Of a DNA stretch of 32,000 nucleotides, positions 133-10,368 are shown piece after piece; within the stretch, counting starts at the first letter, position 1, and every line of letters starts with the position of its first letter. The position numbers were made by a program, and so were the translations under genes. The notes below the pieces were generated by a model. The model was not told the DNA's origin, ran no database searches, and was given only the letters and a program-made list of their open reading frames with translations. Source of the DNA: an uncultured archaeon. Its GTDB lineage: Archaea; Asgardarchaeota; Thorarchaeia; Thorarchaeales; CAZPUN01. Location: assembly GCA_964589775.1 (NCBI GenBank), contig CAZPUN010000059.1:25474-57473 (forward strand). Direction: 5' to 3'.

Positions 133-1830
133 TTGGCATTTGATCCCACAAACCCACTGATTATCCAGAGCGACCGCTCAATTCTTTTAGAAGTTGATAA
201 TCCAAAATTTGAAGAGGCTAGAGACTTCTTGAGTAGGTTTGCAGAAATAATAAAGAGCCCGGAATATGTGCATACATATAGTATAACACCACTGTCATTA
301 TGGAATGCAGCATCTGCAGGAATGACTGCAGAAGAGATTATTGAAGGCCTAAAGAAATTTTCCAAGTATCCGGTCCCATCAAATGTAATACGAGATATAA
401 AGGACTATATTTCTAGATATGGTCGTGTAAAGATCATAAAAGAAAATGATGAATTTTACCTGAAATGTGACTCGGAAGTCCTAGCAGATGAAATTTGGTC
501 AAATAAAAAGACCAGACAATATCTTATCGAGAGAATTGATGATATTACATTCATTTTCGATGAAGGCGACCGAGGCTTCTTAAAACAAGCACTTGTTGAA
601 ATCGGATATCCAGCAGAAGATCTCGCAGGATATGTTGAAGGCGAATATTTAGATATTGAATTGAGAAAAATCACTCGCTCTGGAAAACCATTCGAACTTA
701 GAGATTATCAAAAAGAAGCTGCAGAAGCGTTCTATGCAGGGGGTAGCGTACATGGTGGAAGTGGGGTCATCGTATTACCATGTGGAGCAGGTAAAACAAT
801 TGTGGGTCTTGCAGCAATGGCGCTAGTCAAATCATCAACTTTAATTTTAGCAACAAACTTGGTAGCTGTACGCCAATGGATTTCAGAAATAATTGATAAG
901 ACCACAATAGATCCAAGCCTTGTAGGAGAATATTCTGGCGAAAAGAAGGAAATAAAACCCATAACGGTGGTTACATATCAGGTATTGACGTATCACTCTT
1001 CTAAAGACTCACCATTCGAACACTTGGACATATTTATGGCACGAAATTGGGGACTGATAATTTACGATGAAGTTCATGTATTACCGGCGCCTATTTTTAG
1101 AGCAACAGCAAAAATACAGGCAACTAGAAGATTAGGATTAACTGCCACACTTATTCGAGAGGATGGACGAGAAAGTGATGTGTTTTCCCTGATCGGGCCT
1201 AAGAAATTCGATAAGCCATGGAAAACCCTTGAGAATCAAGGATGGATTGCAGAAGCAATTTGTCACGAAATTAGAGTCGAATTACCTGATGAACTGTTAC
1301 GTAAGTATGCAGTGGCGGATGATAGAAACAAATATAGGATTGCAGCAGAGAATCCCGAAAAAATCAAAATTGTCAAAAAAATACTTGAAAAGCACAAAAA
1401 AGACAATATTCTCATTATAGGTTTATATTTATCTCAATTAAGACAAATTGCAAAAGAAATCAATGCCCCGATAATTACAGGAAAAACACCACAAAAGGAG
1501 AGATTGGAATTATTCAAACAATTTAGAGAAGGAAAAATAAAGGTTTTAGTAGTATCAAAAGTCGCAAATTTTGCAATAGATCTACCAGATGCAAATGTTG
1601 CAATCCAAATATCAGGAACATTCGGTTCCAGACAAGAAGAAGCACAAAGACTTGGTCGTATACTTAGACCCAAAGAAGATGGCAGCCAAGCACACTTTTA
1701 TTCAATTGTCACTAAAGATACAAAAGATATGGACTTTGCAGCGAAAAGACAATTATTCCTCACTGAACAAGGATATCAATACATTATTCAAGATCCTGAA
1801 GCATTATTTGGTGAAGTTGAAGAATCTTAA
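133..1830 (+). CDS. xpb: XPB/Ssl2/Rad25-family SF2 DNA helicase/translocase with N-terminal XPB-NTD (Helicase_C_3) domain
   Basis: Walker A LPCGAGKT, DEVH, LGLTAT, the XPB RED motif (LIREDG), QEEAQRLGRILR and C-terminal RQLFLTEQGY. N-terminal FLSRFAE..SPEYVHTY.ITPLSLWNA domain. GGTGA SD at 122-126 before the TTG start. Confidence 0.95.
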   Translation: MAFDPTNPLIIQSDRSILLEVDNPKFEEARDFLSRFAEIIKSPEYVHTYSITPLSLWNAASAGMTAEEIIEGLKKFSKYPVPSNVIRDIKDYISRYGRVKIIKENDEFYLKCDSEVLADEIWSNKKTRQYLIERIDDITFIFDEGDRGFLKQALVEIGYPAEDLAGYVEGEYLDIELRKITRSGKPFELRDYQKEAAEAFYAGGSVHGGSGVIVLPCGAGKTIVGLAAMALVKSSTLILATNLVAVRQWISEIIDKTTIDPSLVGEYSGEKKEIKPITVVTYQVLTYHSSKDSPFEHLDIFMARNWGLIIYDEVHVLPAPIFRATAKIQATRRLGLTATLIREDGRESDVFSLIGPKKFDKPWKTLENQGWIAEAICHEIRVELPDELLRKYAVADDRNKYRIAAENPEKIKIVKKILEKHKKDNILIIGLYLSQLRQIAKEINAPIITGKTPQKERLELFKQFREGKIKVLVVSKVANFAIDLPDANVAIQISGTFGSRQEEAQRLGRILRPKEDGSQAHFYSIVTKDTKDMDFAAKRQLFLTEQGYQYIIQDPEALFGEVEES

Positions 1831-2663
1831 TGATTCAATTCTTTTTCAATTTCCTTTAATTGCATATTAATATAAGACTTGAATGCCGCAGCATATTCGG
1901 GATTCAATCCTAAAGCAACCATAAATTCAGTCCATAATATATTTGCAACGCGTACAAATACAGATATTTTCTTAGCATGTGTGATCAATGACTCGGATAT
2001 CACATTTCTAAGACATGATAATTTTTCCAAATTTAAATTATGCTCAACGATTAAATTCGCAAGATCAAATGATAAATCACCAATACCCGCATATTCCCAA
2101 TCGATCAGAAATATATACTTTTTAGACTGAACAATCAAGTTTTCAAAACGAAAATCACCGTGAACTAATTTACTAGATGATGCATTTGAAAGTGTTGATA
2201 ACAAATCATGTAAAGGCGCGATATATTTGGACACTGATGAGGCGTAGCCATTTTTCTTCAATAAATTAATACGCTCTACAATGAATTTTTCAAAATATGA
2301 TTCTAAATCATACTTTATCGTTGCCTGTTTTAAATTGATCTTTTGTAGATATCCAAGCAAGTTACATATCAGGTGTGGTTCGAGATTTAGTGCTTTAATA
2401 GGTATTCCGGGGAGATATTCAAGCCATAAAACAGGAAGAGAAAAAGATTCCTCATCAAAGAAAATAACTTTGGGCGAAACGTAAGAGCCTTCTATTTGTT
2501 TTAAAATAGCATATTCGTTGTACGTGTTATCTACAAAATGTTCATGAATTGGCACTTTAACGACAAACTTATGATAATTTGTAATCACCAAATAATTAAT
2601 GTGCATATATCCACCTAAGCGCCCAAACTTTATTACGGGCTCATTAAATATTTTTTCAGACAT
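1827..2663 (-). CDS. aminoglycoside phosphotransferase / choline kinase (APH) family protein
   Basis: VVKVP lysine, Brenner motif HGDFRFEN, IDWEY and GDLSFDLA. Start at ATG 2663 (MSEKIF) is preferred over the track's 2747, but the start is uncertain. Confidence 0.8.
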   Translation of the reverse strand: MSEKIFNEPVIKFGRLGGYMHINYLVITNYHKFVVKVPIHEHFVDNTYNEYAILKQIEGSYVSPKVIFFDEESFSLPVLWLEYLPGIPIKALNLEPHLICNLLGYLQKINLKQATIKYDLESYFEKFIVERINLLKKNGYASSVSKYIAPLHDLLSTLSNASSSKLVHGDFRFENLIVQSKKYIFLIDWEYAGIGDLSFDLANLIVEHNLNLEKLSCLRNVISESLITHAKKISVFVRVANILWTEFMVALGLNPEYAAAFKSYINMQLKEIEKELNH

Positions 2664-2796
2664 TCTTACAAAGTATGAGACTATTTTCTTAAACATAATA
2701 ATCACTATTACGCAAAGCCTTATTATTAAATAGATGGATTCTAACAAAAAATATTATATGCATAAGAATTGCGTTTGAATATGGTGAGATATCTTC

Positions 2797-3078
2797 ATGA
2801 AAGGCCCGGATATTTTGAAAACATGCGCACTACCATTCAGGAGATACGGAGATAAAATCACAGAGGACCAGTTTGTATATCATCTCTCATTTACTCTAAA
2901 ACTAGCACCACCAAGTAAAATACGCCAACTCCTGTATATTGCAATAAAAGAGAAAGAAATAATAAAAGTTGAAAATGAATATATGGTACCTGTATTTCAA
3001 CCACATATTCTTCGTATTCCGTTCAATTATGCACCAACTTTTGACTTCGGAAAAGAGGTCCCACAATATTATTCTTAG
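2797..3078 (+). CDS. DUF2240-like archaeal protein (short, N-terminal portion only)
   Basis: ALPFRR..G..I....F...LSF....PP.....L..A pattern and IPFNYAP recall DUF2240. GGTGA SD upstream. Confidence 0.6.
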   Translation: MKGPDILKTCALPFRRYGDKITEDQFVYHLSFTLKLAPPSKIRQLLYIAIKEKEIIKVENEYMVPVFQPHILRIPFNYAPTFDFGKEVPQYYS

Positions 3079-4199
3079 TTAGATGTAGATTTTATGAATT
3101 GTTCGTATGCATATGCAGTCGAAATCAATAAGTGCATCAGGTGTATATCTGGATATTTTCCTTTAACTAATTCAAATTCACGCTCACTAGTTATATCTAG
3201 GATTTTCATTTTTAGATCTCGTGGGAATGATGAATTAAGGATCATTTCTGCAAATGCTTGTATTATTTGTTCGGGGGAATACTGTTCAATCGCAATCAAC
3301 TTGCGAATTTCTTTCATAGTAGTCGCGAATTTTTTAGAAAGCGTTTGCTCAAATAAATTCTTTAATTTAAACTGTAAATCTTGCTCATGAATCGAATATA
3401 GAAGGTCTTCTGTTATATGTTTAGACTTTAGAGATGCAACTTGCAAATATGTAATTGCAAGCTTCAAATCACCATTTGAGAGCCAGTGTAGCGCATTTAG
3501 TGCGCCTTTTTCAAACTGTATTTTTTCTTTTTGCGATACACTTGCGAAAAATTTCTCAAAATCATCAATAGTTAATTTTTCAAAAGAAATAATAGAACAA
3601 CGCGAACGAATAGGTGTAATTATCCCTGCAAGAGATGAGGATACAAATACAAATCTACAAACAGAACTATATTTTTCAATAACCCGGCGCAGCCCATGTT
3701 GCATGGACCGCGTTAGTAAATCCGCATCGCGTAAGATTAGAATTTTAAATGGAGCATCACCAAGGATCTGCTCACTTGCAAATAGTCTAATAGCACCAAG
3801 TAAAATATCCTTCTTATTGGGGTTTCGCGATATTCCTTGTGATTTTAAATTATTCAAAACATCAATATAAACTCGCGATAAGTACTTTTCTGTGCGAGTG
3901 TATTTTCTGGAATCAGCTGCCATCTTATCAAGTGATTTTTTCATAACAGTTAAGGTTGTTCGTAATATATCAGAGACATTTAATTCAAGAATGTAATCAT
4001 TATATGACTCACCCAAAATTTCCCGCGCAGTAAGTAACAACATGCTTGTTTTAAGAGAACCACGAGGACCAACTAATAACAAATGTGGTAGAGTCTTTTG
4101 CCGAATATAACCTTGAAATATTTCAATATTAGAAGAATTACCAACAACTTCATTCCAATTTTGAGGGCGATATTTTTCGATCCATAATGGGGAGTCCAT
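3075..4199 (-). CDS. replication factor C small-subunit paralog with degenerate ATPase motifs and an internal insert
   Basis: WIEKYRP, LPHLLLVGPRG, ILELNVSD, FKILIL.DAD.LT...QHGLRRVIEKYS, IITPIRSRC and GDLKLAI..LQ, plus a C-terminal collar domain. Confidence 0.9.
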   Translation of the reverse strand: MDSPLWIEKYRPQNWNEVVGNSSNIEIFQGYIRQKTLPHLLLVGPRGSLKTSMLLLTAREILGESYNDYILELNVSDILRTTLTVMKKSLDKMAADSRKYTRTEKYLSRVYIDVLNNLKSQGISRNPNKKDILLGAIRLFASEQILGDAPFKILILRDADLLTRSMQHGLRRVIEKYSSVCRFVFVSSSLAGIITPIRSRCSIISFEKLTIDDFEKFFASVSQKEKIQFEKGALNALHWLSNGDLKLAITYLQVASLKSKHITEDLLYSIHEQDLQFKLKNLFEQTLSKKFATTMKEIRKLIAIEQYSPEQIIQAFAEMILNSSFPRDLKMKILDITSEREFELVKGKYPDIHLMHLLISTAYAYEQFIKSTSN

Positions 4200-4358
4200 T
4201 TGAAATTCCTCATCAATTTAGGTGACATTTTAATATTTGAGATTTCTGTTTGATAGCCGATTCCATAGAATTAATATGTATATTTTTGATTGAAGTCTAG
4301 AATTAAACATAAGAATTTCAGCTATAGGATTTTTATGCGTGCAGGGTAGGTATTAATA

Positions 4359-6071
4359 ATGGAACTTGACAAGACCTTAAGAAGGGAACTTGAATATATT
4401 TCTCGTGATGATCTAATGAAAGCTGCTCTATTATGGGGCATAGATTTCAAAAATAAAAAATTTTCAGATAATTTGTTAGACCTTCTCGCCGTTGAAATGA
4501 GCAAAGAAGAAAAAATCCACAAGATAATCAACGATCTAGATGATTTAGAACGTGATTTTTTAGGCTTATTGCTATTAAATAGAGGTGCAATGATACAACG
4601 AGAGTTGAGGGTTTTTGCACGTAAGTACAGTTCAGGTAAACTTACTGCAACAGAAAAATCATTGAGAAACAAAGGATTAATATATCGTCGTATTATACCT
4701 ACAAGAACCGAATATGTATCAAGCTCCGTAGAATACCGTATAATATCAAAATTTGTGCCATATTTAACTGAATTATTAGAAAAATACCCTGCAGAAGAAG
4801 ACGTCACTGAGAAAATAGATAATGTAGACTCCCAAGGAAATAGTATGCTTGTAGATATTCTTCAATTTGCTTCATACATTGATAAAAATAAAATCAAGTT
4901 AAGTATGAGCTTTGAGTATCCTAAAAAGCACTTGGATAAAATAAAATCAATTCTGAGTGATCCATCCGATGAAAGATTTGAAAAAGTAGATAGATATTCA
5001 CGAAGGGCTGAAGTCTATTATGTGGATAACAAAAACTACATAAATTTAGGAGATGTACTGGGTATCTTTTCTGGGCCTCAAGAATTTGTTACACTACGAT
5101 TTATCAAAGAATATTTAGGAAGATCCCGATCATCTTGGTCAGCAGATGAAACTTCATCAGAACAGTTCTTGAATATAATCGTATGTAGATTAAGACAAAA
5201 AACAGATACATGGATGACAATAGATGGTCTTGTAAAATGGATTAAAGCTGAAATATTTAGGGCTAAGGAAGGAAGACTTTGGATTCAAATACAAAAAATG
5301 AGAATAATTGAGGCATTAAAGTTATTCTATGATTTCGGAATTGTAGAATATGGATATAAAAATGGTGAGCTATTTGCCATAAGAGTGACTGATTTTGGTA
5401 AAAATGTATTATTTGAAAAAGCAGACCCATCAAAAACTGGACGACAAGATGGCTTTATTGTCAGACCAGACTTTGAAATTATTGTTTTTTCGAATGAAAT
5501 AGATCTAGCAATCCAATTTTTACTTGCGAGATTTACTGAACCAACCCGTACAGATGTTGTTTGCAGTTATAAATTAACAGAGGACACCGTATTTGGTGCA
5601 ATTGAACAAGGTATTAGTGTACAAAACATTCTAACCTTCTTGAAAAAACATAGTAGAAAACCAATTCCAGATAATGTCAAAAGAACAATTGAGGGATGGG
5701 CTTCAAGAGCACTTTCGGCAAAAATTTCTACAGTAACATTATTAGAAACAGATTCAGAGCGAGATATGATTAATATTTTGAGCTTTCCATTTATGAAAAA
5801 CTATTTCGTACGAAAGATTTCACCAACCGCAATAATAATTCAAGGAGACATAAACGCACTGTCAAAAGAACTAAGGAAAAAGAAATGCTCCATAAACTTA
5901 CCAGAAGAAGAAACCTCACGAATGAAGATTATTGCATATACACCTAGAAAATACACACGAGAAAACAGAAGCTCAATTCCGGAATCATGCAGAGATTGTC
6001 CAGCAGCAGATAGTTGTTTCTTAATATACAAAAAGGACAAATCATGGAACCGATTTATGCATATATATTAA
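4359..6071 (+). CDS. XPB-partner protein with helicase-associated (Helicase_C_3 / p52 clutch-like) domain and C-terminal CxxCx5C motif
   Basis: GFIVRPDFEII...LLARFTE...SYKLTEDTVFGAIEQGISVQNILTFLKKHS..PIPDNV..TIEGW aligns by eye with the XPB N-terminus in this window. No Walker motifs. Ends with CRDCPAADSC. Confidence 0.85.
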   Translation: MELDKTLRRELEYISRDDLMKAALLWGIDFKNKKFSDNLLDLLAVEMSKEEKIHKIINDLDDLERDFLGLLLLNRGAMIQRELRVFARKYSSGKLTATEKSLRNKGLIYRRIIPTRTEYVSSSVEYRIISKFVPYLTELLEKYPAEEDVTEKIDNVDSQGNSMLVDILQFASYIDKNKIKLSMSFEYPKKHLDKIKSILSDPSDERFEKVDRYSRRAEVYYVDNKNYINLGDVLGIFSGPQEFVTLRFIKEYLGRSRSSWSADETSSEQFLNIIVCRLRQKTDTWMTIDGLVKWIKAEIFRAKEGRLWIQIQKMRIIEALKLFYDFGIVEYGYKNGELFAIRVTDFGKNVLFEKADPSKTGRQDGFIVRPDFEIIVFSNEIDLAIQFLLARFTEPTRTDVVCSYKLTEDTVFGAIEQGISVQNILTFLKKHSRKPIPDNVKRTIEGWASRALSAKISTVTLLETDSERDMINILSFPFMKNYFVRKISPTAIIIQGDINALSKELRKKKCSINLPEEETSRMKIIAYTPRKYTRENRSSIPESCRDCPAADSCFLIYKKDKSWNRFMHIY

Positions 6072-6162
6072 TAAAACACATTTGAAAGGCAAAAGCTTTT
6101 TTACATATTATTTTTTGATATGATTCAAAAACACTTACAACATAGGTGGTGTTGCTAAGAAT

Positions 6163-6999
6163 ATGACTTCAAAATTTGTAAAATTTATTCAGGAATATCG
6201 ATATAAAATGGCGACACTTCCAATGCTAGTAGCATTTGGAACAATATTTTTCAGACAAGAGATATGGTTTAATGGCGTCGGATTAGGATTAATTATTGCC
6301 AGCTTAACGTTACATGGCATTTATCCTCTTGACGATTATATGGAAGGCAAACGTTCAGACTTACCAAAAACAGCAATATGGATGATTATAGCATCATTTG
6401 TATTAGTTCCAGTAATTGTAGCAATTGCACAAGTATTATGGTTAACACCTGGCGCAACACTACTAGAAATACTCTTTTCAGTTGGAGAATTACCATTATG
6501 TCTTGCATTTATGATGGTTGGCTTTTATATGACTGAAGCAACAGAGTATTTTGGAAGAAATCCTCTAACCGAACGTATTGAAAATGTTGGCGATTTACTA
6601 TTCTATGGTGGTCCAATATTCTTCATAGGACACGTTTGGAGCTTACTCATACCTGCGCTTTTACTCTGTATAGGAATCGATTCTATTCATAAAATAGCCC
6701 ATAATGAAACATCAAGCGAAACAATCTCATGGATCTGTTATTTCTTATTCCCACTAACTGCGCCCCTATTCTATAACATGACAGAAATAATGGCTATTGC
6801 ATTATTATCAATTCCTGCATTTGGACTATATGCATATATTAGACCGCAATATACAAAATGGCTTGCAGTACATTCAATTTCATTTGCACTGATTTTACTA
6901 TTTGTCGTAATTCTATCATTATTTGGAATTCAAACACCGTTATGGTTTGAAGCAGTCCCTGATGTGCCGATACCTGATAAATTATTACCATGGTTCTGA
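6163..6999 (+). CDS. polytopic membrane protein (about 8 TM), possibly divergent UbiA-like
   Basis: Many hydrophobic segments. Acidic LDDYMEG loop after the second helix. GGTGGTG SD-like site upstream. Confidence 0.65.
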   Translation: MTSKFVKFIQEYRYKMATLPMLVAFGTIFFRQEIWFNGVGLGLIIASLTLHGIYPLDDYMEGKRSDLPKTAIWMIIASFVLVPVIVAIAQVLWLTPGATLLEILFSVGELPLCLAFMMVGFYMTEATEYFGRNPLTERIENVGDLLFYGGPIFFIGHVWSLLIPALLLCIGIDSIHKIAHNETSSETISWICYFLFPLTAPLFYNMTEIMAIALLSIPAFGLYAYIRPQYTKWLAVHSISFALILLFVVILSLFGIQTPLWFEAVPDVPIPDKLLPWF

Positions 7000-9234: not shown

Positions 9235-10368
9235 ATGACAATGATCGTTAATCCAAAAGGCTTGTTTGACCCATATTACGTTCCTACGAGACTATTATAT
9301 AGAGACCAAGAACTTGGATTCTTAGAGCAAACATATTATGAAGGTTTTGAAGACCAATATGGCATTACAGTGCTTGTCAAAGGAATGAGTGGAATAGGAC
9401 GAACCGTTCTATCGCGATATTTCATAACGCGAGTAATTCCGGAAAAGTTTGACGCTGCAACAATTTATGTAGATGCCGCGTACAAATCAGAACTTGAAAT
9501 AGTATCATCATTAAACGAGAAATTATCTCGAATTGCAAATGAACCATTTACCATTACATTTGATCTTGCATCTTTGTGGACTAACTTTCAACACAAGATG
9601 AATTTAATTGGCTCAGGAACTGTATTAGTAATTGACAATTTAAGCACGAATTCAGAGAGACTGTATCAGAAAATAGCAAGACTCTCAAAGGAGTTGAATA
9701 CCACAACAATTGGAATCCTATCGAGTTTTGATTATCGGGCACTAGTTCGAGGAAATGCACGGAAAATAAGCTCGGACTTTGAATTAAGCCTTGAAAATTA
9801 TACACAGAGTCAATTAATAGATATTCTAAAAGCTAGAGTTAGTGAAACATTTCCAACACCACTTAGACCAGAAATAATTAGTTACATTACAGATATTGTA
9901 TTCGAGTTCGATGTTGGGAAACCCGCAACATCAATAGACGCATTAAAGAGTCTGTGGCCAATGACACAAAAAGGTTTAGAAATCACAGCTGAAGCAATCA
10001 GAAAAGCCACAACTTCAGTTATAGGAACTGATTGGGATGAATCTTTATTTGACATTGTAGAGTTTTTGAGTGTTTCAGACTTTACAACAATTTTAGTATT
10101 AGATGTGATTTGTGAATATTTTATAAACAATCCACATGAGCCATATATTTCGTATGATCAGATACATGATTTATCAATTGTGAAATTTGAGGAAATGGGG
10201 CTTGAATATAGTACACCTGTTGTAAACAAAGCAATACAAATTTTGCTTGTACAATCCATCTTATTTGAATCAAATGCTGAAGAAAATATGTATTATATAG
10301 TGGCAGCACCAGAGTTCATTAAGGATAATATTGATTCTATAAAAGAAGACATATACAGCAAAATGTAA
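9235..10368 (+). CDS. divergent Orc1/Cdc6-like AAA+ protein with degenerate Walker motifs
   Basis: LFDPYYVPTRLLYRDQEL N-terminal motif, GMSGIGRT (Walker A), LVIDN (Walker B), NYTQSQLIDILKARV, and a winged-helix-sized C-terminus. Confidence 0.8.
   Translation: MTMIVNPKGLFDPYYVPTRLLYRDQELGFLEQTYYEGFEDQYGITVLVKGMSGIGRTVLSRYFITRVIPEKFDAATIYVDAAYKSELEIVSSLNEKLSRIANEPFTITFDLASLWTNFQHKMNLIGSGTVLVIDNLSTNSERLYQKIARLSKELNTTTIGILSSFDYRALVRGNARKISSDFELSLENYTQSQLIDILKARVSETFPTPLRPEIISYITDIVFEFDVGKPATSIDALKSLWPMTQKGLEITAEAIRKATTSVIGTDWDESLFDIVEFLSVSDFTTILVLDVICEYFINNPHEPYISYDQIHDLSIVKFEEMGLEYSTPVVNKAIQILLVQSILFESNAEENMYYIVAAPEFIKDNIDSIKEDIYSKM

What the first reader, a model, noticed from the sequence alone, without database searches (positions are those of the whole stretch)
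133..6071. TFIIH-core-like XPB + p52/Tfb2-like pair in an archaeal chromosome
Seen: the XPB has an N-terminal domain (FLSRFAE..SPEYVHTYSITPLSLWNAASAGMTAEEIIEGLKKFSKYPVPSNVIRDIKDY...DSE...RQYLIERIDDITFIF). The non-ATPase protein at 4359-6071 carries a clear paralog of the same two-domain block (LLARFTE..TDVVCSYKLTEDTVFGAIEQGISVQNILTFLKKHSRKPIPDNVKRTIEGW...DSE...KNYFVRKISPTAIII; about nt 5451-5840). Established: in eukaryotic TFIIH the XPB NTD and the p52 clutch domain share a fold and form a pseudo-symmetric dimer that stimulates the XPB ATPase, whereas the studied archaeal XPBs lack the NTD and pair with the Bax1 nuclease. From memory, the partner also resembles p52 upstream of the clutch (L..F..FG.V...GFIV). 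Inference: this is a minimal XPB-p52 module for repair bubble opening or promoter melting, and a candidate relative of the TFIIH ancestor. Caveat: similar XPB + helicase-associated-domain pairs exist in bacteria (e.g. mycobacterial Rv0861c/Rv0862c), so horizontal transfer is a real alternative.
Basis: partly seen in the sequence, partly recalled or inferred. Interest (0 to 1): 0.85.

Follow-up and report, generated by a model that had tools for sequence, protein, structure and literature searches.

The report
Thorarchaeal XPB with p52-like partner
This Asgard (Thorarchaeota) genome encodes the DNA-opening motor XPB and, 2.5 kb downstream, a protein predicted to fold like the whole of p52, which holds and activates XPB in eukaryotic TFIIH; the same pair also occurs in other archaea and many bacteria, so it is an old prokaryotic module and not shown to be the direct ancestor of TFIIH.

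Summary
The 565-aa XPB (133-1830) has an N-terminal Helicase_C_3 domain. The 570-aa protein at 4359-6071 carries a paralogous copy (31% identity, E 9e-11). Its predicted structure aligns along almost the whole of human and yeast p52 (Foldseek E 7e-11; VIA Z 15, 389 residues).

The pair and its gene order (XPB, DUF2240, RFC-like, partner) are conserved across Thorarchaeota. The domain was found in 0 of 313 genomes of other Asgard families. The nearest relatives of both proteins are in other archaea (Methanofastidiosa and unnamed lineages) and in bacteria, often as adjacent genes or operons.

This XPB is 50-56% identical to bacterial XPBs but about 33-40% identical to eukaryotic ones. In the ML tree eukaryotes sit outside all prokaryotic long-form XPBs (support 99/97). 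An AU test does not reject a Thor+eukaryote clade (p 0.17), so ancestry stays open.

No p8, p44 or p34 was found. A Bax1 gene lies elsewhere in the genome. Binding is inferred, not shown.

The papers I could search say prokaryotes lack p52. This scan has already reported the same pair in several other Thorarchaeota genomes and in many bacteria.

The parts
133..1830 (+). Long-form XPB DNA translocase/helicase, 565 aa, TTG start
   Evidence: Pfam hits are Helicase_C_3, ResIII and ERCC3_RAD25_C. NCBIfam NF045503 repair_heli_XPB scores 869 bits against a 610 cut-off. TIGR00603 rad25 scores 388.6 bits against 328.7. The best PDB sequence hits are yeast Rad25 (322 bits) and human XPB (314-317 bits), against A. 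fulgidus XPB at 163 bits. GAGKT, DEVH and RED are invariant in alignment A2.
157..540 (+). XPB N-terminal domain (residues 9-136), the p52-docking domain of eukaryotic XPB
   Evidence: PF13625 positions 1-125 of 125, 125 bits. It aligns to human XPB in one stretch from residue 6 (8ebt_A).
4359..6071 (+). p52/Tfb2-like partner protein, 570 aa, no enzymatic motif found
   Evidence: Foldseek: the top 20 PDB hits are all p52/Tfb2 chains (8ebs_D E 6.9e-11, 522 columns). VIA: 8ebu_D Z 15.1, 389 residues aligned, model 43-511 against p52 28-461. The intact ORF is conserved in 40 of 41 genomes of the order.
4506..5411 (+). Partner residues about 50-351: three or four winged-helix modules, equivalent to the N-terminal half of p52
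   Evidence: Secondary structure of model m8c7e710f2b6b. VIA: 6tru_A (p52 N-terminal half) Z 9.6, model 61-354. MarR/PadR-type winged-helix hits fall on 50-147.
5439..5879 (+). Partner residues 361-507: clutch domain (361-453) plus a small alpha/beta C-terminal domain (459-507), paralogous to the XPB N-terminal domain
   Evidence: PF13625 at 366-477. BLASTP to the XPB N-terminal domain gives E 9e-11. VIA: human XPB 71-163 against model 361-451, Z 15.5, rmsd 1.6 A. p52 chains align through model 508-511, corresponding to p52 458-461.
5886..6017 (+). C-terminal tail with four invariant cysteines (C510 ... C544-x2-C547-P-A-x2-S-C553), a putative metal site absent from p52
   Evidence: These are invariant columns in the 10-sequence alignment A1. 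pLDDT is below 50 there, so no fold can be assigned.
3075..4199 (-). Divergent RFC-small-subunit-like gene, transcribed divergently from the partner; a conserved neighbour with no functional link shown
   Evidence: Pfam Rep_fac_C and DNA_pol3_delta2. It scores below the NCBIfam RFC-S cut-offs (241 against 303). It sits about 1.25 kb upstream of the partner on the opposite strand in nearly all Thorarchaeota loci. A canonical RFC-S lies elsewhere, at G000:C12.
2797..3078 (+). DUF2240 small protein (93 aa), a conserved neighbour
   Evidence: PF09999 at 38.4 bits. tblastn matches in 29 Thorarchaeota loci at the same relative position.

Best explanation
The window encodes a prokaryotic XPB-p52-like module. 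XPB is an SF2 double-strand DNA translocase of the long form, meaning it has the N-terminal domain that eukaryotic XPB uses to dock p52. The 570-aa partner has the architecture of p52: winged-helix modules, then a clutch domain paralogous to the XPB N-terminal domain, then a small C-terminal alpha/beta domain. It also has a lineage-specific four-cysteine tail.

The most likely mechanism is inferred from TFIIH. The partner's clutch pairs pseudo-symmetrically with the XPB N-terminal domain and tunes XPB's ATPase and translocase activity. Its winged-helix part tethers the motor to DNA or to another factor. The likely role is opening DNA at lesions or stalled complexes.

The pair was already present in the ancestor of the order, since both families have it. 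It belongs to an archaeal sub-family, with Methanofastidiosa and unnamed archaea, of a module that is widespread in bacteria. It works without the rest of TFIIH.

Shown here: homology, fold, synteny and distribution. Inferred: binding, activation and the DNA-repair role.
For: 1. Paralogy: XPB N-terminal domain against partner 388-505, E 9e-11. Both pass the PF13625 cut-off.

2. Fold: the top 20 Foldseek PDB hits are p52/Tfb2 (E down to 6.9e-11). VIA gives Z 15.1 with 389 aligned residues spanning p52 28-461, and the clutch against human XPB N-terminal domain gives Z 15.5, rmsd 1.6 A.

3. Co-occurrence and synteny: the partner is in 40 of 41 genomes of the order. PF13625 is in 83 of 86 genomes of family f2 plus this genome, mostly two hits per genome, and in 0 of 313 genomes of other Asgard families. 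XPB lies 3.4-7.5 kb upstream on the same strand in nearly every locus with enough flank.

4. Independent recurrence of adjacency: an overlapping XPB-partner operon in archaeal locus L102, and divergent pairs in L100 and L103. In bacteria there are an operon in Paenibacillus, a near-adjacent pair in Deinococcus and an adjacent pair in Gloeocapsopsis, and each of these partners has a Helicase_C_3 match (Gloeocapsopsis at 31.5 bits, just under the 34.2 cut-off).

5. XPB looks active: GAGKT, DEVH and RED are invariant and NF045503 scores 869 bits.

6. Family size: 3041 representative proteins match the partner profile at E<=1e-3.
Against: No direct evidence of binding exists. The two genes are not co-transcribed here: three genes, two of them on the opposite strand, lie between them.

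In sequence the partner fails Pfam's Tfb2 cut-off (25.1 against 34.5). It matches only the last third of that profile. Its clutch scores better against the XPB N-terminal domain than against p52.

The model has moderate confidence (mean pLDDT 74, from 10 sequences). Global TM-scores to p52 are low (0.2-0.3) because domain orientations differ.

No p8 homologue was found. The genome also has a Bax1 nuclease gene, so XPB may have another partner or an additional one.
Confidence: 0.6

Rival explanations
1. Direct TFIIH ancestor. Under this reading, the Thorarchaeota pair descends vertically from the Asgard module that eukaryotes inherited as XPB-p52. Other Asgard lineages then lost it or replaced it with short-form XPB.
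For: The organism is an Asgard archaeon. The partner covers the whole p52 architecture. Long-form XPBs, including this one, are sister to eukaryotic XPB to the exclusion of the classical archaeal XPBs of other Asgards (100/98). The AU test does not reject a Thor+eukaryote clade (p 0.168, delta lnL 10.2). Mean identity to eukaryotes is marginally higher for Thorarchaeota (33.1%) than for bacteria (31.3%).
Against: The ML tree joins all prokaryotic long forms against eukaryotes (99/97), with Thorarchaeota nested with other archaea among bacteria. Conserved columns give 50 Arch=Bac≠Euk against 1 Euk=Arch≠Bac. This XPB is 50-56% identical to bacterial XPBs and about 33-40% identical to eukaryotic ones. 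PF13625 was found in 0 of 313 genomes from 31 or more other Asgard families, so many losses would be needed. No p8, p44 or p34 was found.
Confidence: 0.12
2. Horizontal import. Under this reading, the pair entered archaea from bacteria once or a few times, and reached the Thorarchaeota ancestor either directly or through another archaeon. It serves as an accessory repair or defence-type module with no bearing on eukaryogenesis.
For: The pair is broadly present across bacterial phyla: Cyanobacteriota, Actinomycetota, Deinococcota, Bacillota, Planctomycetota and Verrucomicrobiota. The archaeal sub-clade (98/98) branches among bacterial rows. The pair is often on large plasmids and next to mobile or defence genes.
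Against: The backbone branches that nest archaea inside bacteria are weak (83/78, 85/77, 89/86). The root inside the prokaryotic clade rests on the long eukaryotic stem (2.05 changes per column). The archaeal partners share a full-length N-terminal region that the listed bacterial-type matches lack; those align only over profile positions about 305-510. This is compatible with a long separate history in archaea.
Confidence: 0.45
3. Independent protein. Under this reading, the partner does not bind XPB. It is a multi-winged-helix DNA-binding or regulatory protein that merely shares a domain with XPB, and the gene proximity reflects a DNA-transaction neighbourhood (RFC-like, DUF2240, Orc1/Cdc6-like).
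For: The partner is not in an operon with XPB here. It is transcribed divergently from the RFC-like gene, and that pairing is at least as conserved as the link to XPB. Some relatives have no XPB gene within the 7 kb read on each side: Methanofastidiosa locus L099 and locus L101. G401, the genome that holds L101, does carry an XPB-type N-terminal domain on another contig.
Against: Either both or neither was found in the 400 genomes of the phylum that were sampled, apart from incomplete genomes with a single hit. Overlapping XPB-partner operons occur in unrelated lineages. The shared domain is the one that mediates XPB-p52 docking in solved TFIIH structures (PMC6422496, PMC7708078).
Confidence: 0.2

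Closest known systems
XPB-p52(-p8) translocase sub-module of eukaryotic TFIIH (human ERCC3/GTF2H4/GTF2H5; yeast Ssl2/Tfb2/Tfb5; e.g. PDB 6NMI, 8EBS-8EBU, 7NVV, 6TRS)
   Same: Both have an XPB with the N-terminal docking domain, RED motif and SF2 core. The partner has the p52 domain order of winged-helix modules, clutch and small C-terminal domain, and it aligns with p52 28-461. The clutch is a paralog of the XPB N-terminal domain.
   Different: No p8, p44 or p34 was found. The partner fails the Tfb2 Pfam cut-off and is only 12-14% identical to p52. It has an extra N-terminal helical segment and a four-cysteine tail. XPB lacks the eukaryotic N- and C-terminal extensions (565 aa against about 780-840). 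Binding has not been shown.
Bacterial XPB (NCBIfam NF045503, e.g. M. tuberculosis Rv0861c) with the neighbouring 'helicase-associated domain-containing protein' (PF13625)
   Same: The XPB is 50-56% identical over its full length and passes the equivalog cut-off. The partner carries PF13625 and lies near XPB.
   Different: This one is in an archaeon. The genes are separated by three others instead of being adjacent or overlapping. This partner has no WYL domain, which some relatives have, and has a cysteine tail instead. The N-terminal winged-helix region aligns in full only with archaeal relatives.
Archaeal XPB-Bax1 helicase-nuclease (A. fulgidus, S. tokodaii; PDB 6P4F, 6P66)
   Same: Both are XPB-family SF2 motors in an archaeon. 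A Bax1/DUF790 gene exists in this genome.
   Different: This XPB belongs to another clade: 163 bits to AfXPB against 322 to yeast Rad25, and it separates from Asgard short-form XPBs at 100/95. It has the N-terminal domain rather than the short DRD. Bax1 is on another contig, next to a DUF4139 gene and an ABC ATPase gene, not next to a helicase.

Membership tests
Long-form XPB (NCBIfam NF045503 / TIGR00603 rad25) | Scores above the curated cut-offs over the full length | tested here: met
   NF045503 scores 869.2 bits (cut-off 610), profile positions 1-547 of 548. TIGR00603 scores 388.6 bits (cut-off 328.7).
Long-form XPB (NCBIfam NF045503 / TIGR00603 rad25) | N-terminal XPB domain (PF13625) ahead of the two RecA-like domains | tested here: met
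   PF13625 at residues 9-136 with 125 bits, then ResIII at 187-341 and ERCC3_RAD25_C at 366-552.
Long-form XPB (NCBIfam NF045503 / TIGR00603 rad25) | Catalytic motifs: Walker A GxGKT, DEVH and the RED motif | tested here: met
   G218-A-G-K-T222, D312-E-V-H315 and R342-E-D344 are invariant in 14 sequences.
p52/Tfb2 (Pfam PF03849) | Pfam gathering score over the Tfb2 profile | tested here: not met
   The score is 25.1 bits against a 34.5 cut-off, and only profile positions 243-356 of 358 are matched. One archaeal relative, P0023, passes at 38.9 bits.
p52/Tfb2 (Pfam PF03849) | p52 domain architecture: N-terminal winged helices, a clutch homologous to the XPB N-terminal domain, and a C-terminal p8-like domain | tested here: met
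   Foldseek: the top 20 hits are p52/Tfb2 chains. VIA: model 43-511 against p52 28-461, Z 15.1, 389 residues aligned. 6tru_A (N-terminal half) gives Z 9.6 and 6trs_B gives Z 11.9. This rests on a predicted model with mean pLDDT 74.
p52/Tfb2 (Pfam PF03849) | Binds the XPB N-terminal domain and stimulates the XPB ATPase | not testable with these tools
   This needs biochemistry or a structure; see Tried and rejected.
p52/Tfb2 (Pfam PF03849) | Has a p8/Tfb5 partner for its C-terminal domain | tested here: not met
   The best PF06331 hits in the genome are E 0.12 and 0.45, both below the cut-off and no better than hits in control genomes. The genome is 96.75% complete. A very divergent small protein could have been missed.
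TFIIH core (XPB, XPD, p62, p52, p44, p34, p8) | p44/Ssl1 and p34/Tfb4 are present | tested here: inconclusive
   Neither PF04056 nor PF03850 gave a match at E<=0.01. The Tfb4 control matched in none of the control genomes, so that search has no positive control. p62 was not searched.
TFIIH core (XPB, XPD, p62, p52, p44, p34, p8) | An XPD-type Fe-S helicase is present | tested here: met
   There are three DEAD_2 (PF06733) helicases, on C13, C46 and C1. None is in this window, and no link to XPB is shown.
Archaeal XPB-Bax1 system | Short-form XPB encoded next to Bax1 (DUF790) | tested here: not met
   Bax1 is at G000:C6:9182-10393, flanked by a DUF4139 gene and an ABC ATPase gene. No classical XPB was found in this genome at E<=1e-15. 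This XPB is separated from short-form XPBs at 100/95.
Prokaryotic XPB + helicase-associated-domain (PF13625) protein pair | Both proteins carry PF13625 and are encoded close together | tested here: met
   Both pass the cut-off. They lie 2.5 kb apart on the same strand, and the arrangement is conserved across Thorarchaeota. The same pairing occurs in bacteria and in other archaea.

The most novel reading that the evidence does not exclude
The archaeal XPB-p52-like pair, seen here in a deep-branching Thorarchaeota family, is the surviving descendant of the module from which eukaryotes built the XPB-p52 arm of TFIIH. On this reading the first TFIIH-like DNA opener arose in the Asgard ancestor and was lost in the other Asgard lineages.
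Probability: 0.12. Interest if true: 0.85.

Novelty: new variant of a known kind. Interest (0 to 1): 0.6.

Why it matters
Reviews and primary papers treat p52 as a eukaryotic invention. They state that bacteria have no p52 homologue (PMC3353954) and that archaeal XPB, lacking a TFIIH-like assembly, works with Bax1 (PMC13024598).

A full-length p52-like protein paired with a long-form XPB in Asgard archaea, other archaea and many bacteria would change that picture. It would mean the XPB-p52 partnership predates eukaryotes. It would also offer small, soluble two-protein systems without disordered regions for studying how p52 controls the XPB motor, which matters for xeroderma pigmentosum and trichothiodystrophy mutations at this interface. 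And it would make the origin of TFIIH testable by phylogeny and biochemistry.

It does not, on present evidence, show that eukaryotes obtained the module from Asgard archaea.

Tried and rejected
- Complex prediction of XPB 1-165 with partner 310-515, both given as alignments, returned 'no answer' (score 0.19 and 0.11; the mark is 0.32).
- A second AU test (eukaryotes plus the 12-row archaeal sub-clade) returned the same numbers as the first to four digits. I suspect a reused saved run and do not use it.
- The word-indexed homologue search with the partner found only itself and one 84%-identical relative. The profile search was needed to go further.
- The homologue search with full XPB returned only close relatives at 61-96% identity; every hit that carries an organism name is archaeal, nearly all Thorarchaeota. 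Eukaryotic and long bacterial XPBs were reached by searching the helicase core among longer proteins.
- No eukaryotic p52 sequences could be fetched, so no p52 tree was built.
- The profile search of PDB sequences finds p52 only at E 0.33. The p52 link therefore rests on fold and on the sub-threshold Pfam hit.
- I could not name the organisms behind loci L100-L104, neither through cluster names nor through accession searches in papers. Their archaeal nature is inferred from neighbouring genes: TFIIB, Rpr2, archaeal ribosomal proteins and PGF-CTERM.
- Literature searches for XPB with p52, Asgard, Helicase_C_3 or WYL found no description of a prokaryotic p52-like partner.
- The 93-aa ORF at 2797-3078 was checked as a possible p8 analogue. 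It is DUF2240, not Tfb5-like.

Full report
**What is there.**
The window comes from contig C59 of a 2.16-Mb genome that is 96.75% complete. Record titles of homologous loci place its order in Thorarchaeota, an Asgard lineage. It is the only genome of its family (f1) in the collection. All the other genomes of the order that were searched (86) belong to family f2.

The gene order in 133-6999 is as follows:
- XPB (133-1830, +)
- an APH-like kinase (1827-2747, -)
- a 93-aa DUF2240 protein (2797-3078, +)
- a divergent RFC-small-subunit-like gene (3075-4199, -)
- the 570-aa partner (4359-6071, +)
- a polytopic membrane protein (6163-6999, +)

**Observation check.**
XPB has Pfam Helicase_C_3 at residues 9-136 (125 bits), ResIII, and ERCC3_RAD25_C. 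The partner has Helicase_C_3 at 366-477 (48.6 bits, above the cut-off). It also has a sub-threshold Tfb2 match (25.1 bits against 34.5) at 318-432, which corresponds to the last third of the Tfb2 profile. BLASTP of the XPB N-terminus against the partner gives 31% identity over 123 residues, E 9e-11.

**XPB.**
It passes NCBIfam's prokaryotic XPB equivalog model (869 bits, cut-off 610) and the rad25 subfamily model (388.6 bits, cut-off 328.7). Against PDB sequences it scores 322 bits to yeast Rad25 and 314-317 bits to human XPB. It scores 163 bits to A. fulgidus XPB and 148 bits to Sulfolobus XPBII. GAGKT, DEVH and RED are invariant among 14 relatives. It is therefore a long-form XPB and probably active.

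**Partner.**
An AlphaFold2 model built from 10 sequences has mean pLDDT 74 and pTM 0.62. In Foldseek against the PDB, the top 20 hits are all p52/Tfb2 chains of TFIIH structures. The best is 8ebs_D at E 6.9e-11 over 522 columns, followed by the XPB N-terminal domains. TM-scores are low (0.2-0.3) because domain orientations differ.

VIA-align gives these results:
- Against human p52 (8ebu_D): Z 15.1, 389 residues aligned, model 43-511 against p52 28-461.
- Against the N-terminal half of p52 (6tru_A): Z 9.6, model 61-354.
- Against human XPB 71-163: model 361-451, Z 15.5, rmsd 1.6 A.

The partner therefore has the full p52 layout of winged helices, clutch and small C-terminal domain. It adds about 40 N-terminal residues and a tail with four invariant cysteines (C510, C544, C547, C553) that p52 lacks.

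In sequence the clutch is nearer to the XPB N-terminal domain than to p52. A profile search of PDB sequences gives E 8e-5 for XPB and 0.33 for p52.

**Distribution in Asgard archaea.**
The partner was found in 40 of 41 genomes of the order. PF13625 was found in 83 of 86 genomes of family f2 plus this genome, usually as two hits (XPB and partner). It was found in 0 of 313 genomes from 31 or more other families of the phylum. Many of those genomes do carry XPB-type helicases of other kinds: short forms of 460-570 aa and forms of 670-750 aa. None scores above 161 bits to this XPB core.

In the Thorarchaeota loci fetched by name, the gene order is nearly invariant wherever enough flank is present:
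- XPB lies on the + strand, 3.4-7.5 kb upstream.
- DUF2240 lies on the + strand.
- The RFC-like gene lies on the - strand, about 1.25 kb upstream.
- The partner follows on the + strand.

XPB is 64-72% identical across the two families, while the partner is 33-38% identical.

**Distribution elsewhere.**
A profile of the partner finds 3041 representative proteins at E<=1e-3. The only non-Thorarchaeota matches that align over nearly the full length (P0009, P0010, P0023, P0030, P0064 and others) come from contigs with archaeal neighbours. One of these is Methanofastidiosa.
- In L102, XPB and the partner overlap as an operon.
- In L100 and L103 they are divergent neighbours.

Most of the other listed matches align only over profile positions about 305-510.

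Named bacterial XPBs are 50-56% identical to this XPB over its full length. They include Gloeocapsopsis, Acaryochloris, Tsukamurella, Nonomuraea, Deinococcus, Actinomyces, Arthrobacter and Paenibacillus. Four of them were inspected:
- In Gloeocapsopsis, Deinococcus and Paenibacillus a gene with a Helicase_C_3 match sits next to XPB. Gloeocapsopsis scores 31.5 bits, just under the 34.2 cut-off.
- In Tsukamurella a gene annotated 'helicase-associated domain-containing protein' lies about 3.5 kb upstream.

**Phylogeny of XPB.**
phmmer scores against this XPB are as follows:

| Group | Bits |
|---|---|
| Thorarchaeota f2 | 811-894 |
| Other archaea with the pair | 741-811 |
| Bacteria | 425-687 |
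| Eukaryotes | 318-338 |
| A haloarchaeal plasmid form | 255 |
| Other Asgard XPB-type helicases | 111-194 |

I built a careful IQ-TREE tree (LG+C20+F+G4 PMSF; 48 rows, 556 columns). Two rows with long inserts, P0290 and P0300, were left out. The tree was rooted on Asgard short-form XPBs.
- Eukaryotes are monophyletic (100/100) on a long stem (2.05).
- They are sister to one clade of all prokaryotic long forms (99/97).
- Within that clade, Thorarchaeota (92/98) sit in a sub-clade with the other archaea (98/98), among bacterial rows.
- The backbone branches there are weak (83/78 to 89/86).

Two rows that I had pre-labelled 'Thor' from the hit list (P0275 and P0277) fell outside the Thorarchaeota clade, so I treated them as unknown.

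Among strongly conserved columns, 119 are identical in all three groups. Fifty read Arch=Bac≠Euk, 2 read Euk=Bac≠Arch and 1 reads Euk=Arch≠Bac. Mean identity to eukaryotes is 33.1% for Thorarchaeota and 31.3% for bacteria.

The clade is therefore not the ML solution and no character supports it, but the data do not reject it.

One robust result is that eukaryotic XPB groups with the long-form prokaryotic XPBs and not with the classical archaeal XPBs of other Asgards (100/98). This agrees with the 2012 observation that bacterial and eukaryotic XPBs share the N-terminal domain (PMC3353954).

**Other TFIIH parts and Bax1.**
No Tfb5/p8 was found (best E 0.12). Neither Ssl1/p44 nor Tfb4/p34 was found, but the Tfb4 search had no positive control. 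Three XPD-like DEAD_2 helicases lie elsewhere. A Bax1/DUF790 gene lies on contig C6 between a DUF4139 gene and an ABC ATPase gene, not beside a helicase. No classical XPB was found in this genome. The long-form XPB may therefore also be Bax1's motor; this was not tested.

**How it most likely works.**
The mechanism is inferred by analogy with TFIIH (PMC6422496, PMC7708078). The partner's clutch docks on the homologous XPB N-terminal domain and modulates the translocase. The winged helices anchor the motor to DNA or to other factors. The cysteine tail may bind a metal. The likely role is DNA opening in repair.

Homology, fold, synteny and distribution are shown. Binding, activation and biological role are inferred.

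**Literature and earlier scan notes.**
[quoted passage not shown] They also say archaeal XPB lacks a TFIIH-like assembly and pairs with Bax1 (PMC13024598). I found no paper describing a prokaryotic p52-like partner.

This scan has already reported the same pair in several other Thorarchaeota genomes and in many bacteria. I re-tested those claims here and reached the same reading. I add four points:
- The pair is also present in a second, divergent Thorarchaeota family.
- The nearest full-length relatives of the partner are in other archaea.
- An AU test leaves a Thor-eukaryote clade unrejected.
- The cluster with the RFC-like and DUF2240 genes is conserved.

**Verdict.**
This is a real, conserved archaeal version of the XPB-p52 pair. 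It is a new variant relative to the literature and is of solid interest for TFIIH evolution and mechanism. It is not shown to be a TFIIH core or the ancestor of TFIIH.

Noticed in passing
window 3075-4199 (-): A divergent RFC-small-subunit-like gene scores below the NCBIfam RFC-S cut-offs (241 against 303). It is transcribed divergently from the p52-like gene in nearly every Thorarchaeota locus examined. The genome has a canonical RFC-S elsewhere, at C12:17222-17476. The conserved head-to-head pairing could mean co-regulation with the partner.
   Followed up: partly
window 2797-3078 (+): A 93-aa ORF is a DUF2240 protein (PF09999, 38.4 bits). It is conserved at the same relative position, just beyond the RFC-like gene, in 29 Thorarchaeota loci.
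   Followed up: partly
window 5886-6017 (+), partner residues 510-553: The partner has four invariant cysteines (C510 and the motif C-x2-C-P-A-x2-S-C) in a low-confidence C-terminal tail. They are conserved in both Thorarchaeota families. The tail is absent from p52, and the archaeal relatives P0009 and P0030 end in a WYL domain in its place. It could be a Zn or Fe-S site.
   Followed up: partly
window 6163-6999 (+): A polytopic membrane protein with no Pfam family is 42% identical to the gene downstream of the partner in another genus. A homologue lies 1.8-3.2 kb downstream of the partner's start in most Thorarchaeota loci, on either strand.
   Followed up: partly
G000:C6:9182-10393 (L016): A Bax1/DUF790 nuclease gene (185 bits) stands alone between a DUF4139 gene and an ABC-type ATPase gene, although no classical XPB was found in the genome.
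   Followed up: partly
L119, L123 (G116, G107) and L117, L118, L122 (G324, G335, G333): Other Asgard families carry XPB-related helicases of 670-750 aa. These form their own clade (100/95), separate from both the short-form and the long-form XPBs. The roughly 735-aa type begins with a Cys-rich, zinc-ribbon-like N-terminus.
   Followed up: no
L111:5759-6088 (Deinococcus taeanensis plasmid): A 109-aa ORF with no Pfam match sits between XPB and the helicase-associated-domain gene. Whether it is a p8-like third component was not tested.
   Followed up: no
window 9235-10368 (+): An AAA+ protein has only weak, sub-threshold Pfam matches (AAA_16, KaiC). I did not examine it.
   Followed up: no
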